From contig NW_014569507.1 of assembly GCF_000743755.1 (NCBI RefSeq), forward strand, positions 1 through 49,764: a stretch of DNA of 49,764 bases. The letters are read 5' to 3'. A program made the position numbers and the translations under genes. The DNA is from Blastocystis sp. subtype 4. Its lineage: Eukaryota. Below, piece after piece: positions 22,543 to 37,196 of the stretch (within the stretch, counting starts at the first letter, position 1; each line of letters opens with the position of its first letter). The notes under the pieces were generated by a model, which was not told the DNA's origin, did no database searches, and saw only the letters and a program-made list of their open reading frames with translations.

Positions 22543-22613
22543 TGAGTGGTAAAGGAGATATTGAGAACAAACAATGAACCGCGGGAAACAACACAGAATG
22601 AGAATCTGTATCA

Positions 22614-33427: not shown

Positions 33428-34118
33428 CTATTCTGTTTTCTCGGCCGATAACTCATCTGCAAGCCTATAGATTACAAGAATCACTCTCTACCCTACCAGT
33501 CAAAACCATCAACAAGACCCTTTCCGCTTGTTGCCGAAGACTCAAAGATCGTCCACTTTCTATCACGAATTTCTGTTAGTCCAAGTGCCTCTGAAATCTT
33601 AGCTCCATTCAAAGCTCCAGGAAGATCCTGCTTGTTTGCGAAAATCAATAATGATGTTCCCTTCAGCTCATCTTCCTATACATGATAGGACAAATTCAAT
33701 CCCACTTTGAGAATGGCAGCCAACTCGGCTTTTGCAATATTGAGACGATCAATATCGGCACTATCGACAACAAAGATAACAGCATCTAGGACTAAGAACA
33801 AGTACACACCTCAAACCAGTATTTGTGAAATAGCAACGCCAATAAGGTCGAATACTCGTCTGACCTCCCAGATCCCATACCTGGAAAGTAAGGTTCTTGT
33901 ATTTCAGTGTCTCCACGTTAAAACCGATTGTAGGAACTGTAGACACCACTTCGTCGAGTTGCATACGATCTAAAAGATTGTAAAACACATGCCACACCTA
34001 TTGAGAGAAACTTACAGAGGATAGAAGTCTTTCCAGCATTATCAAGACCAAGAACAAGAATTCGTACTTCTTTGTTTCCAAAGTACTGGTTAAAAAGTTT
34101 GGAGATCCATATACCCAT
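33428..34118 (-). CDS. ARL1: ADP-ribosylation factor-like GTPase 1
   Basis: MG start, [17 protein letters not shown], the ARL1 signature [16 protein letters not shown] and FANKQD. Four short introns. Confidence 0.95.
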
Positions 34119-34180
34119 TCGTACAATCAGACACCGAAAAATGTGAGGGAAAAGTGAGGTAGAAGTTTCACTTGTTGCTT
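34119..34180. promoter_or_regulatory. 62-nt divergent (bidirectional) promoter region between ARL1 and PHD-AMT1
   Basis: Head-to-head ATGs at 34118 (-) and 34181 (+). Confidence 0.6.
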
Positions 34181-35699
34181 ATGTCTGACATTGATCTCTC
34201 CATCTGCTATTGCGGATGGGGGTACAATCGTCCAATGATACGTTGTTGTCATTGTAAACGATGGTATCACTACGATTGGTATTCGATGTTTTTTTATCTG
34301 AGATGGTAGTGTCAATGTCACAGCAACTGATTTGGAAGATCCAAATCACTACTATTGCTTTATGTGTATCGATTTTAAACCAGACTCAGGTAATTCCAAG
34401 GGATTAGATAAACCTAAGATAGTGGCGATGATTATGATTTTGATGAGGATTTGAAAAGACAAAGGGAGATGAACCGTGAGGCTCGAAAACGAGTTCGCCA
34501 GATGTGTATTATTTGTATTGGGAAGAGTCAGAACTAGTAAAAGATGATACATTTAGTAGCAAAAGTGTCATGTCCATGGAGAAGAGTAGTATTCTTCGTA
34601 CCATGTGTTGTATTGAGCAACAGTTGCTTTTAGAAGATCATTCTCCTTCTCTCCATGATTCTTCTCTTAGTTACAAGCAAACCCTTTTGCAAAACGTTCG
34701 TGAAGATGTATTGTTCGTATTAACTCTATCATCGTAGGAGGAATACCGTATACAGTTGTTAAATACCAATCCCTTAATGAAGGAGCTTTTCTTTGATATC
34801 GAACGTTCTGGAGAATATAAACATGTTCTTAGTCTATCTTCCTATCTCGTAGCTCGTGAAGGCAATCGTCGCTCGAACCGCTTCGTTCCGAAGTATGACG
34901 AATACTGTAAGCATTCTATTTGTTGTATTATTTATAGGGATGCAAATTTCGCGACGATTGCTAGATTTTGAAGTCCCTGTTAATTCTGTTGGCATTAATG
35001 CGGACATCCGAACATTTGATTGGCGCGTAGGGATACCTCAAGAATTCAAAAATAGCGATTTGGCCGCGTCCAGAGGGAACTCACTGGACATCTATTTGAC
35101 GTAGTTATGATGGACCCACCATGGCATTTATCCAGTGCTGACCCCTGTCGAGGGGTATGAAATCGACTCAGATCTAAGGAATAGGTAGCAATTAAGTATC
35201 AGCAATTGGATGATGAATCAATTGCCAGTATTCCAATTCATCTTATCCAAGATGATGGGTTATTGTTTTTATGGACAATCAATGCAAAGTATACAACAGC
35301 ACTGCGCATTATTCAAAACTGGGGTTATGTATTGATAGGGGATATATCATGGGTCAAGTTATCTGCCCGTAATTTTGTAATCCAAAGTAATGGATTTTAT
35401 TTACAACATGCAAAAGAAACCTGTTTCGTTGCGAAAAAGGTAGGATTGAAAATGTGATTCCATAATAGGGAAATTGCAATGCACTGGATAAAACAAAGAT
35501 CGGTTTGGTGAAAGACGTTATCTTTTCAAAGCGAAAGGGGCAGAGTCAGAAGCCAAACGAGATTTATAGTATTATTGAATCATTAGTCCCAAATGGTAAT
35601 GCCAGTTGTAGAGTGTTTACTATAGGTTACTACGTAGAAATATTTGGAAGAAGAAACAATCTTCGTAATGACTGGGTCACAATCGGAAATGAAATTTGA
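34181..35699 (+). CDS. AMT1: PHD finger + AMT1/MTA1-type MT-A70 adenine-N6 methyltransferase (415 aa, 9 introns)
   Basis: Catalytic region FDVVMMDPPWHLSSADPCRGVAIKY (DPPW at 35113-35124), FLWTINAKY, GFYLQHAKETC, RKGQSQKPNEIY and EIFGRRNNLRNDWVTIGNEI. N-terminal C4HC3 finger at 34205-34367. Nine 29-32 nt introns leave 1248 coding nt in one frame. Confidence 0.88.
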
Positions 35700-35948
35700 T
35701 TTTCACGTTTTCTATATTGGTTTGGTGAATTTACACCTTCTTCGTTATTTGAATGTTTGTTGCATCTATTATGAATGGATAGTCTCCCTGGGTGGATTAG
35801 TGTACTAATACGTCTATTACATACAATTCTCGTTCAGTCCAAATTATATCCCTAATCTACTCTCACTTCTTCACAGAATAATCCTTCGTACTGACTCCTT
35901 ACATATGTGACTCAAACCGAATCTTTGTTTTGTTTTCTTTTTTCAAAA

Positions 35949-36876
35949 ATGAATTATTCGCTACAGCCTGTGCCAGTTACATATGCTCCAGTAGCAGTAC
36001 CTGCTACTACTATGCCTTTGAATCCTCCAGCACTGGAGATGCCACAAGTAAATCCAGTACAACCTGTACCAATGACAGTTACTCCTGTCAATCCAGTGGA
36101 TGTTGTGAAGCCACTTCCGACTTATGCTCCTCAACAACAGATTCGTAAGGAAGAAGAATTGGATATTATGAATAGCAGCTCCAGAAGACTCTATAACGTC
36201 TTTCCTTATGGAACCTCAGTTCTATGTCAGAGTAAAAGAAGTTAGAACTTGTGGTCCTTTGGAGTTTGGCGTTTATCCCAGTGATTACTATGGTCAACCC
36301 AATTTAAGTTGTGATCCCGTTTGTTCTGTATAGAAATGGGAATTGGTAATAATCAGTAGTTGTCATTATCTGACACTCTTCACAAGGGAAGCTTCACTAT
36401 CAATAATGTGACATACGATATTCACAAGAAGTCTTCAAGGACAGCATTCAGCATAAAGAACAGAACAACTGGAAATAAGTTCTGCACAATTGACTTTTCA
36501 AGTGGATGTTGCAGTGTAGGCTTCAAGATCGAGTTTGCAGATATCAATCGCACATTTGATGGAAAGTTTGTGATTAATGGAAATGAGTCTTGGTAGGTTT
36601 GATAACGAGGAGTCATTGTTAGTGCTGTGATTAACGAAGGGAGGGGAATGGGTACCGTTACGATCCTTGGGGAAGAGAATTGTGTAAGTATATTGTATGG
36701 AGCTTATTGGTAGCAGGTTCCAACATGTGTACTGGTTATTCCTTCTTCAAAGCCAGATGAATCCTTGAATGCTATGACCATTCGCTCTATGTATATTGCT
36801 TTAGCAGCTATATTATATTCAATGTAAGGGATGGTACAATGATTGATCTTCTAGTACTATTAGCGGTCAATATTAA
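35949..36876 (+). CDS. Hypothetical protein with a Pro-rich N-terminus and beta-rich body (possibly scramblase/tubby-like)
   Basis: QPVPVTYAP-type repeats, beta-strand-like exons containing GCCS and a terminal hydrophobic helix (MYIALAAILYS). The fold is a guess. Confidence 0.55.
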
Positions 36877-37196
36877 TATAGTTGTTTTTATTGTTGTTTG
36901 TTCATACAATTCTTATGAGTTCGTGTATCATGTGTAGAAAGAGTATCTGAGTCATTCGAGTTAGAAGTTGATCACATGGTTTTCCGCTTCTGTGATATGA
37001 CTGTTAAAGCAATCTTATAACTGAGCTTGTAACTCATTAATCATAAGTAACCAATCTGATGCGAAATCTTATCTATTATTGGTACCCCTTATTCGGTTAT
37101 TACTAATTATCATTATTCTTTTCATCAGAAGGGTTATTTGGAAATTTATACTCCATTTGTAATTGTTAGTCTAATATAAGTCACGCTCCTAGATCC

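What the first reader, a model, noticed from the sequence alone, without database searches (positions are those of the whole stretch)
34938..35699. Predicted genomic ApT 6mA system in this gut protist
Known: eukaryotes with AMT1 generally carry symmetric 6mA at ApT in linker DNA downstream of transcription starts, and AMT1 works with AMT6/7 (MTA9), p1 and p2. Inference: an intact AMT1 predicts the same mark and partners here. In a genome with tiny promoters, such a mark could help define transcription starts.
Basis: inference. Interest (0 to 1): 0.7.

Follow-up and report, generated by a model that had tools for sequence, protein, structure and literature searches.

The report
PHD-tagged AMT1 DNA adenine methylase gene
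This Blastocystis gene encodes an AMT1-type adenine methyltransferase joined to a PHD finger; it likely helps write N6-methyladenine on DNA near active gene starts, but the mark is unmeasured here and this copy has an unusual DNA-gripping loop.

Summary
The interval 34938-35699 is real coding sequence. It holds exons 6-10 (the MT-A70 catalytic domain) of a 10-exon gene at 34181-35699 (+) on a Blastocystis subtype 4 contig. The 415-aa product matches Tetrahymena AMT1/MTA1 far better than METTL3 (229 vs 104 bits) and falls inside the AMT1 clade. It keeps DPPW and all adenine-pocket residues.

- The protein starts with a PHD finger whose closest solved relatives are PHF23, CFP1, PHF2 and BPTF.
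- This is the divergent one of two PHD-AMT1 paralogues. Three DNA-contact residues of the substrate-binding loop are replaced, including the His291 wedge (now Asn). The second subtype 4 paralogue keeps them.

Two published supplementary tables already list Blastocystis hominis with AMT1 and an AMT6/7 (MTA9) partner, so the basic prediction is not new. A 2025 survey found symmetric ApT 6mA in all 15 AMT1-encoding species it profiled, but Blastocystis was not among them.

No genome is held for this window, so AMT6/7 in subtype 4, p1 and p2 could not be searched. 6mA itself cannot be tested here.

Verdict: a known kind of system. The new variant is the PHD fusion with a remodelled loop.

The parts
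34181..35699 (+). Whole gene. Ten exons: 34181-34278, 34310-34389, 34419-34505, 34538-34707, 34738-34906, 34938-35026, 35056-35154, 35185-35439, 35469-35595, 35626-35699 (TGA included). Nine GT..AG introns of 29-32 nt. Product is 415 aa.
   Evidence: Exact spliced mapping of P0002 onto the window gives 100% identity. tblastn confirms it.
34205..34367 (+). PHD finger, residues 9-52, spanning intron 1. Ligand pattern is C9-x-C11 ... C22/C23-x2-C25 ... H30-x2-C33 ... C49-x2-C52, and it contains the CKRWYH motif.
   Evidence: Pfam PHD E 7.3e-5, 23.2 bits against a cut-off of 24. phmmer against PDB: PHF23 E 9.6e-9, CFP1 3.9e-7, then PHF2, EBS, PHF13 and BPTF. Model pLDDT is 77-88 over residues 11-50.
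34938..35699 (+).
35095..35693 (+). MT-A70 methyltransferase domain, residues 245-414. The stretch aligned to Tetrahymena MTA1 is residues 214-415 (34973-35696).
   Evidence: Pfam PF05063 E 3.8e-35. PDB 7f4r/7yi8_B/8xyl_A score 229 bits. Foldseek top hits are MTA1 chains, E 1e-26.
35113..35124 (+). Catalytic DPPW motif (D251-W254), at the start of gate loop 1 (35113-35199, spans intron 7).
   Evidence: Invariant in 122 of 122 aligned AMT1-like proteins.
35356..35409 (+). Substrate-binding (interface) loop, residues 322-339. It carries the atypical F328 (35374-35376), Q331 (35383-35385) and N333 (35389-35391) in place of Tetrahymena K286, K289 and H291.
   Evidence: Mapping from the alignment and column counts. 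Residue roles come from PMC12485025 section 8.
34119..34180 (.). 62-bp spacer between the start codons of the divergent Arf-family gene (- strand) and this gene. It is presumably a shared promoter.
   Evidence: Sequence and ORFs. Arf Pfam hits on 33764-34178 (-).
35754..35761 (+). TGTTTGTT motif 55 nt after the stop codon. From memory, this is the Blastocystis polyadenylation-linked motif.
   Evidence: 14 matches in the window against 3.7 expected, and 0 of 100 shuffles reach 14. The functional link is recalled, not tested.

Best explanation
The gene at 34181-35699 encodes a PHD-finger plus MT-A70 protein of the AMT1/MTA1 clade that is predicted to act as a catalytic subunit of a DNA N6-adenine (ApT) methyltransferase in Blastocystis, with the PHD finger likely docking it on H3K4-methylated nucleosomes at the 5' ends of active genes.

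Shown here:
- The gene model, the domain architecture and AMT1-clade membership.
- Intact DPPW and adenine-pocket residues.
- A second, canonical PHD-AMT1 paralogue in the same subtype.
- Purifying selection on this copy.

Taken from papers:
- AMT1-encoding species carry symmetric ApT 6mA after the TSS, between H3K4me3 nucleosomes.
- B. hominis also has an AMT6/7 (MTA9) gene.

Inferred:
- Blastocystis DNA carries the mark.
- This loop-variant copy (F328, Q331, N333 in place of K286, K289, H291) is still active. It may have a changed flank or hemimethyl preference compared with the canonical copy.
- The PHD finger reads H3K4me3.
For: AMT1 identity:
- 229 bits to Tetrahymena MTA1 against 104 for METTL3, about 40 for METTL14 and 22 for MTA9.
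- Foldseek's top 12 hits are MTA1 chains.
- In a 118-sequence domain tree, the five Blastocystis-type proteins form a clade (support 0.976) inside a 60-member AMT1 clade (0.946). Outside it lie a METTL3 orthologue (P0273, 361 bits to human METTL3) and ZZ-finger AMT2/5-type proteins (P0270, P0279).

Catalytic core:
- 65 of 72 columns that are at least 90% conserved are kept.
- 17 of 22 mapped Tetrahymena contact residues are identical, including D209, P210, W212, L214, R221, V223, I225, Y227, I254, K280, S332 and K334.

Selection:
- The orthologue from another subtype (L003) is 95 of 142 aa identical while synonymous sites are saturated (pS 0.965, pN 0.24). It keeps the Q..N loop.

System context:
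- A canonical paralogue exists in subtype 4 (P0126, XP_014528908.1).
- B. hominis is tabulated as AMT1=2, AMT6/7=1, METTL3=0, METTL14=0, METTL4=0, AMT2/5=0.
- CBK22092.2 is listed as Mta9 and CBK23014.2 (= P0020) as Mta1.
- All 15 AMT1-encoding species profiled show symmetric ApT 6mA near the TSS, overlapping H3K4me3.

PHD finger:
- The best solved relatives are PHF23, CFP1, PHF2, EBS, PHF13, BPTF and TAF3. I recall these as H3K4me3 readers.
- The Trp of the C-x-x-W-Y-H motif and the Met of the PMI-x-C motif are kept.
Against: - H291, the base-flipping wedge that also touches the methyl group of the partner-strand 6mA, is Asn here. [quoted passage not shown] Position 286 is K or R in 120 of 122 AMT1-like proteins, and Q at position 289 is unique to this protein.
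- No 6mA measurement exists for Blastocystis in the searched library.
- AMT6/7 in this subtype, p1 and p2 could not be looked for.
- The PHD finger scores just under Pfam's cut-off (23.2 against 24). Its first cage position is not clearly aromatic in the paralogues (I or L in P0021, P0020 and P0032), and the B. hominis copy has Leu in place of the cage Trp.
- In Acanthamoeba, lowering H3K4me3 did not change 6mA, so a histone-mark-first hierarchy is not general.
Confidence: 0.6

Rival explanations
1. This copy is a weakened or non-catalytic AMT1 paralogue. It would serve mainly as a chromatin-targeting or regulatory subunit, for example paired with the canonical PHD-AMT1 or with AMT6/7. The canonical paralogue would do the methylation.
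For: - The three substitutions sit exactly in the DNA-gripping loop: K286 to F, K289 to Q, H291 to N.
- The Tetrahymena mutants H291F and K286A/K289E lose activity or DNA binding.
- The canonical copy in the same subtype keeps R, K and H at these positions.
- The loop has lower model confidence, pLDDT 59 for residues 331-340.
Against: - DPPW and all adenine-pocket residues are intact, unlike the true pseudo-enzymes MTA9 and METTL14 (the pseudo-enzyme comparison is).
- The orthologue in another subtype also keeps DPPW-side residues and the same loop under purifying selection.
- Asn at the H291 position recurs in 5 other AMT1-like proteins of 122.
- Parabasalid-type AMT1 paralogues carry I, N, T or H there, and Trichomonas has robust 6mA.
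Confidence: 0.2
2. It is an RNA adenine methyltransferase, as its public names say ('mRNA (2'-O-methyladenosine-N6-)-methyltransferase', 'mRNA m(6)A methyltransferase'). It would stand in for the missing METTL3/METTL14.
For: - The database names.
- B. hominis is tabulated with METTL3=0 and METTL14=0.
- The loop residues that grip double-stranded DNA are changed.
Against: - The names are automatic.
- The protein scores 229 bits to the DNA enzyme MTA1 against 104 to METTL3 and lies outside the METTL3 group in the tree.
- It has no CCCH zinc fingers.
- MTA1-MTA9 methylates only dsDNA.
- R221, which inserts into the duplex, is kept.
Confidence: 0.07
3. The genes are intact but the mark is rare, stage-restricted or absent in this anaerobic gut protist. 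The 'system' would then have little role at most promoters.
For: - The share of genes methylated varies widely among AMT1 species: 92% in Chromosphaera and about 3% in Naegleria.
- No 6mA data exist for Blastocystis.
Against: - Two paralogues plus an AMT6/7 gene are retained in the genus.
- This copy is under purifying selection.
- All 15 AMT1 species tested had the mark.
Confidence: 0.1

Closest known systems
Tetrahymena thermophila AMT1 / MTA1, the catalytic subunit of the MTA1c DNA 6mA methyltransferase (PDB 7f4r, 7yi8_B, 8xyl_A)
   Same: The MT-A70 domain aligns end to end (residues 214-415 against 172-372) at 229 bits. DPPW, R221, K280, F293, Q296 and gate-loop-2 residues are identical. 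It is the best structural match.
   Different: The Tetrahymena protein has no PHD finger in the aligned chains. Here the N-terminus is a PHD finger plus about 150 aa of helical linker. K286, K289 and H291 are F, Q and N.
The canonical Blastocystis PHD-AMT1 paralogue (subtype 4 XP_014528908.1 = P0126; BT1 P0021; B. hominis CBK23014.2 = P0020)
   Same: Same PHD plus linker plus MT-A70 architecture, and the same clade with support 0.976. They share the linker motif IEQxLLxEDxSPSxH.
   Different: Only 42% identical overall. The canonical copy keeps R/K/H at positions 286/289/291 and the usual DPPWQL...NPTRG gate loop.
Ichthyosporean p1 subunit carrying a PHD domain (Romero Charria et al. 2025, section 10)
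   Same: A PHD reader is built into the AMT1 complex in a lineage where 6mA tracks H3K4me3.
   Different: There the PHD sits on the DNA-binding partner p1. Here it is on the catalytic subunit itself. The paper says p1 lacks a PHD in most eukaryotes and mentions no PHD on AMT1 in the passages found.
Parabasalid AMT1 paralogues (Tritrichomonas foetus P0196 and relatives; Trichomonas vaginalis in the survey)
   Same: They have several AMT1-type paralogues with non-canonical substrate-binding loops: I/N/C/K at position 286, P at 289, H/I/T/N at 291. Trichomonas has 6mA with a different flank preference.
   Different: They form a separate group in my tree, no PHD was found, and Trichomonas lacks AMT6/7, p1 and p2.
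METTL3 (RNA m6A writer) and AMT2/5 (ZZ-finger de novo DNA 6mA writers)
   Same: Same MT-A70 fold and DPPW motif.
   Different: Much lower scores: 104 bits to METTL3, and ZZ-bearing representatives score 112-123 bits to this protein. This protein has no CCCH or ZZ fingers. They fall in separate tree groups.

Membership tests
AMT1 / MTA1 clade of MT-A70 DNA 6mA methyltransferases | MT-A70 domain with the catalytic DPPW motif | tested here: met
   Pfam PF05063 E 3.8e-35. D251-P-P-W254 sits in a column invariant in 122 of 122 sequences.
AMT1 / MTA1 clade of MT-A70 DNA 6mA methyltransferases | Closer to characterised AMT1 than to METTL3, METTL14 or MTA9 | tested here: met
   229 bits to Tetrahymena MTA1, 104 to METTL3, about 40 to METTL14 and 22 to MTA9.
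AMT1 / MTA1 clade of MT-A70 DNA 6mA methyltransferases | Phylogenetic placement inside the AMT1 clade, apart from METTL3 and AMT2/5 | tested here: met
   FastTree on 118 domains and 200 columns, midpoint-rooted. The gene sits in a 60-member clade (support 0.946) with Chlorella, Paramecium and Hondaea AMT1-like proteins. METTL3 (P0273) and ZZ proteins (P0270, P0279) lie outside. Caveat: deep nodes are weakly supported, and no AMT6/7 or METTL4 sequences were in the tree.
AMT1 / MTA1 clade of MT-A70 DNA 6mA methyltransferases | Adenine-pocket and duplex-inserting residues of Tetrahymena MTA1 (D209, P210, W212, L214, R221, V223, I225, Y227, I254, S332, K334) | tested here: met
   All 11 are identical. 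Residue roles come from PMC12485025 section 8.
AMT1 / MTA1 clade of MT-A70 DNA 6mA methyltransferases | Substrate-binding-loop DNA contacts K286, K289 and the H291 wedge | tested here: not met
   They are F328, Q331 and N333 here. Among the 122 sequences the columns read K/R in 120, K in 91 and H in 116. This lowers 'canonical AMT1' but not clade membership.
AMT1 / MTA1 clade of MT-A70 DNA 6mA methyltransferases | AMT6/7 (MTA9) partner gene in the same genome | not testable with these tools
   No genome is held for the window, and there is no second MT-A70 in the 49.8-kb window. For B. hominis, two supplements list one: AMT6/7=1 and CBK22092.2 under Mta9.
AMT1 / MTA1 clade of MT-A70 DNA 6mA methyltransferases | p1 and p2 subunits present | not testable with these tools
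   I had no genome and no seed sequence that I was allowed to use. The survey's per-species p1/p2 data are in a figure that is not held.
AMT1 / MTA1 clade of MT-A70 DNA 6mA methyltransferases | Symmetric ApT 6mA in genomic DNA that depends on the enzyme | not testable with these tools
   The runs found are assembled contigs without base-modification signal.
H3K4me3-reading PHD fingers (PHF23/PHF13, CFP1, PHF2, BPTF type) | Cys4-His-Cys3 zinc-ligand pattern and a significant match to the family | tested here: met
   The ligand pattern is readable in residues 9-52. PHF23 scores E 9.6e-9 and CFP1 3.9e-7. The Pfam score is 23.2 against a cut-off of 24. The paralogues carry a precomputed PF00628 hit.
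H3K4me3-reading PHD fingers (PHF23/PHF13, CFP1, PHF2, BPTF type) | Aromatic cage for the trimethyl-lysine | tested here: inconclusive
   W28 (CKRWYH), M19 and Y15 align with W, M and F of PHF23. I recalled the cage positions rather than taking them from a call. The paralogues vary, and B. hominis has Leu at the Trp position.
H3K4me3-reading PHD fingers (PHF23/PHF13, CFP1, PHF2, BPTF type) | Binding to H3K4me3 peptide | not testable with these tools
   This needs a binding assay.

The most novel reading that the evidence does not exclude
In Blastocystis the 6mA writer reads the histone code itself. A PHD finger fused to AMT1 binds H3K4me3 and places ApT methylation on the linkers of promoter-proximal nucleosomes without an adaptor.

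The two PHD-AMT1 paralogues have also split the work. The canonical copy (His wedge) maintains hemimethylated sites. This loop-variant copy (Asn wedge, no loop lysines) acts on unmethylated DNA or other flanks, replacing the AMT2/5 de novo enzymes that the genus lacks.
Probability: 0.25. Interest if true: 0.7.

Novelty: new variant of a known kind. Interest (0 to 1): 0.45.

Why it matters
The basic claim, that Blastocystis has the AMT1 pathway, already sits in two papers' supplementary tables, so it adds little by itself.

What is new here is the architecture. A chromatin-reader finger sits on the catalytic subunit, and there are two paralogues that differ exactly in the residues that flip the base and sense the old-strand methyl group.

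The 2025 survey left open how 6mA is aimed at H3K4me3 nucleosomes. It noted that in most eukaryotes this would need intermediate proteins. A natural PHD-AMT1 fusion makes that link directly testable with peptide binding, ChIP and 6mA maps in a small genome.

The His-to-Asn paralogue is a natural experiment on maintenance versus de novo activity, or on flank specificity.

For Blastocystis biology, it would be the first epigenetic mark predicted for a very common human gut protist.

Tried and rejected
- **Whole-genome search for partners.** The genome search 'own' answered that no genome is held, so HMM searches for AMT6/7, p1 and p2 in this subtype could not be run. Earlier-scan notes for this genome are empty.
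- **Partners inside the window.** tblastn with the product and Pfam on the 150 longest of 157 stop-to-stop ORFs of 75 aa or more found no second MT-A70 and no Myb or homeobox gene.
- **RNA evidence for the splice model.** Five runs were listed and three laid. Only four short assembled contigs landed (34128-35012), all collinear with the genome, with no joints and none over the catalytic exons. This says nothing for or against expression or splicing. The intron model rests on the exact match to P0002 and on homology.
- **Word-indexed search for AMT6/7.** Only the best 120 of 293 hits are listed, and all are AMT1-like. The all-against-all search lists 150 of 6559 hits and does not reach AMT6/7-level scores. 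I left the third homologous-protein search unused because I had no suitable seed.
- **Conserved N-terminal helix as a proxy for p1/p2 docking.** The [ILVMF]E[QE]x[ILMVF][LYFMI] motif occurs in only 28 of 98 AMT1-like proteins with at least 110 aa upstream of DPPW, and at varying distances. It is not usable as evidence.
- **dN/dS.** Synonymous sites are saturated (pS 0.965), so no ratio can be given.
- **Literature.** No paper in the library holds Blastocystis together with AMT1 and 6mA. The four holding Blastocystis and 6mA are unrelated abstract books or floras. The 15 best of 651 papers holding two or more of 'Blastocystis', 'N6-methyladenine', 'MT-A70' and 'adenine methylation' all show 0 occurrences of Blastocystis. 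No passage on a PHD fused to AMT1 turned up in the Nat Genet paper, in Wang 2019 or in Iyer 2016. Figures and bioRxiv supplements could not be seen and may show it.
- **Complex prediction.** Not used, because no partner sequence was available.

Full report
**What is at the coordinates.** The window is a 49,764-bp contig. A public protein on a contig of that exact length is named as Blastocystis sp. subtype 4. Reading 34500-36200 shows short GT..AG introns and a DPPW motif on the + strand.

The 415-aa public protein P0002 (Blastocystis sp. BT1, hypothetical protein) maps onto the window with 100% identity. It maps as ten exons from 34181 to 35699, with nine introns of 29-32 nt.

The subtype 4 database model (P0001, 295 aa) starts at 34777. 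It also reads through the last intron, which gives it a false C-terminus. No ORF of 60 aa or more lies on the opposite strand within the interval.

**What the protein is.** Pfam finds MT-A70 at residues 245-414 (E 3.8e-35). It also finds a PHD finger at residues 10-52, at 23.2 bits against a cut-off of 24.

Against all solved structures, the scores are as follows:

| Target | Bits |
|---|---|
| Tetrahymena MTA1/AMT1 (residues 214-415, E 6e-67) | 229 |
| Human METTL3 | 104 |
| METTL14 | about 40 |
| MTA9 | 22 |

An AlphaFold2 model built from 70 aligned sequences has a mean pLDDT of 74.9. Its best Foldseek matches are MTA1 chains, at E 1e-26.

**Phylogeny.** For the tree I combined named AMT1-like hits with representatives from an all-against-all search. 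That search gave 6559 hits at E<=1e-3 and 116 at E<=1e-30, and lists 150. Of 166 sequences, 118 covered at least 170 profile positions and were kept.

The five Blastocystis-type proteins form a clade with support 0.976. This clade lies inside a 60-member group (support 0.946) containing Chlorella, Paramecium, Blepharisma and Hondaea AMT1-like proteins. Three kinds of sequence fall outside that group:
- a METTL3 orthologue (P0273, 361 bits to human METTL3);
- ZZ-finger proteins of the AMT2/5 type (P0270 and P0279);
- a chromodomain-bearing group.

Deep nodes are weak, the root is a midpoint, and no AMT6/7 or METTL4 sequences were included.

**How intact it is.** I aligned 122 AMT1-like proteins. 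Of the 125 then held, I dropped three: the mis-modelled P0001 and two unspliced metagenome calls, P0003 and P0004. Of 72 columns that are at least 90% conserved, this protein keeps 65.

I then mapped the residues that Xu et al. 2025 (PMC12485025, section 8) describe in the DNA-bound Tetrahymena complex. Of 22 residues, 17 are identical. These include:
- the DPPW motif;
- the adenine pocket (L214, V223, I225, Y227, I254, S332, K334);
- R221, which inserts into the duplex;
- K280, F293, Q296, R328 and Q331.

Two changes are mild: T282 to S and N284 to R. Three are not:
- K286 is F. The column is K or R in 120 of 122 sequences.
- K289 is Q. This is the only Q in 122.
- H291 is N. Asn occurs in 6 of 122 and His in 116.

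In Tetrahymena, H291 wedges into the duplex and touches the methyl group of the opposite-strand 6mA. [quoted passage not shown] So the gene is intact as an enzyme core but atypical in its DNA-gripping loop.

**Two paralogues.** Blastocystis has a second PHD-AMT1 that is 42% identical to this one. It is represented by:
- P0021 (BT1);
- P0126 (subtype 4, XP_014528908.1);
- P0020 (B. hominis CBK23014.2).

That copy keeps R, K and H at the three loop positions.

The window's copy is not decaying. L003, a metagenome locus from another subtype, encodes its orthologue for residues 274-415. It is 95 of 142 aa identical while synonymous sites are saturated (pS 0.965, pN 0.24). It has the same Q and N in the loop, with I in place of F.

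Asn at the wedge position also occurs in a small separate AMT1 clade and in one further protein. Parabasalid-type paralogues show I, N, T or H there, and Trichomonas has robust 6mA with a different flank preference. Loop variation therefore goes along with altered specificity at least as well as with loss of function.

**The PHD finger.** Residues 1-66 alone match these solved PHD fingers:
- PHF23 (E 9.6e-9) and CFP1 (E 3.9e-7);
- then PHF2, EBS, PHF13, BPTF, MLL5, PHF8, ALFIN-like 1, TAF3 and DIDO1.

From memory, nearly all of these are H3K4me3 or H3K4me2 readers. The Trp of C-x-x-W-Y-H and the Met of P-M-I-x-C are kept. The cage assignment is recalled and the paralogues vary, so reader function is an inference.

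The fusion is rare. Among the 120 listed hits, only P0020, P0021, P0022 and P0032 carry a precomputed PHD hit. I scanned 136 of the 139 new representatives, dropping the three longest for a size limit. Only P0151 has a PHD.

**What is known.** Romero Charria et al. 2025 (PMC12695648) is the main source. I read the outline, sections 6, 7, 10 and 13, passages, and parts of supplements 5, 7 and 8. The paper reports the following:
- AMT1, AMT6/7, p1 and p2 co-occur across eukaryotes.
- All 15 AMT1-encoding species profiled have symmetric ApT 6mA peaking after the TSS and overlapping H3K4me3.
- Trichomonas does so without AMT6/7, p1 or p2.

Its Supplementary Table 1 lists Blastocystis hominis with AMT1=2 and AMT6/7=1. 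AMT2/5, METTL4, METTL3 and METTL14 are all 0. Blastocystis does not appear in the main text.

For Lax et al. 2025 (PMC12019607) I read supplement file 5 only. It lists CBK23014.2 under Mta1 and CBK22092.2 under Mta9.

So AMT1 with an AMT6/7 partner in the genus is already on record. I found no 6mA measurement for Blastocystis. I also found no mention of a PHD on AMT1. Figures and some supplements could not be seen.

**What could not be tested.** No genome is held for the window, so AMT6/7 in this subtype, p1 and p2 remain unsearched. The window itself holds no second MT-A70 gene and no Myb or homeobox gene. Public runs gave only a few unspliced contigs, with no modification or splicing information.

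**Surroundings.** The gene lies head to head with an Arf-family GTPase gene, with 62 bp between the two start codons. A TGTTTGTT motif lies 55 nt after the stop codon. The motif is enriched in the window, with 14 matches against 3.7 expected.

**Verdict.** Its prediction is reasonable but largely already implied by published tables. The unmeasured mark and the p1/p2 partners remain open.

The added value is twofold. First, the catalytic subunit carries its own PHD reader. Second, this particular copy is a conserved loop-variant paralogue. I put 0.6 on its being an active, PHD-targeted DNA 6mA writer and 0.2 on its being mainly a regulatory subunit. The smaller odds go to an RNA role, or to a system that is little used.

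Noticed in passing
window 34777-35699: The public subtype 4 gene model (P0001, 295 aa) starts five exons late and reads through the last intron (35596-35625), which gives it a false 60-aa C-terminus. It is named as an mRNA cap m6Am methyltransferase, which the evidence does not support.
   Followed up: yes
P0126 (subtype 4 XP_014528908.1), residues about 33-43: The public model of the canonical paralogue keeps an unspliced 10-aa insertion inside its PHD finger compared with the BT1 protein P0021. The insertion also displaces one zinc-ligand Cys.
   Followed up: partly
window 33761-34180: An Arf-family GTPase gene on the - strand starts 62 bp from this gene's start codon. The two form a very compact divergent pair.
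   Followed up: partly
window, 14 sites (e.g. 35754-35761, 36895-36902, 22566-22573): TGTTTGTT occurs 14 times against 3.7 expected by shuffling. The sites tend to lie on the strand of the nearby genes. From memory, this is the Blastocystis polyadenylation-linked motif.
   Followed up: partly
L003:3-458 compared with window 35185-35699: Intron positions differ between subtypes. The orthologue has a 30-nt intron after the codons for G-Y-K, where the window has none. It lacks the window's introns at 35440-35468 and 35596-35625.
   Followed up: partly
P0242 (755 aa, unnamed EukProt protein); also P0219, P0260: These MT-A70 proteins of a separate clade are fused to a chromodomain. P0242 also has a stretch (370-450) matching the Myb-like DNA-binding region of Tetrahymena p1 (E 6e-8), and P0219 and P0242 have a weak integrase-p58 C-terminal hit. 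This looks like a one-chain reader plus p1-like plus methyltransferase.
   Followed up: no
P0002 residues 109-124 (window 34597-34644) and the same region of P0020, P0021, P0022: A linker motif IEQxLLxEDxSPSxH is conserved among the Blastocystis-type PHD-AMT1 proteins. Its function is unknown. It may correspond to the MTA1 N-terminal helix that docks p1 and p2 in Tetrahymena.
   Followed up: partly
P0058, P0069, P0088, P0102, P0043: Five other AMT1-like proteins from unnamed sources also have Asn at the His291 wedge position. Four of them form one small clade.
   Followed up: partly
L002:1063-1653: A metagenome AMT1 gene has in-frame stop codons at conserved Gln and Glu positions (for example DPPW*L). 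This would fit a ciliate-type genetic code.
   Followed up: no
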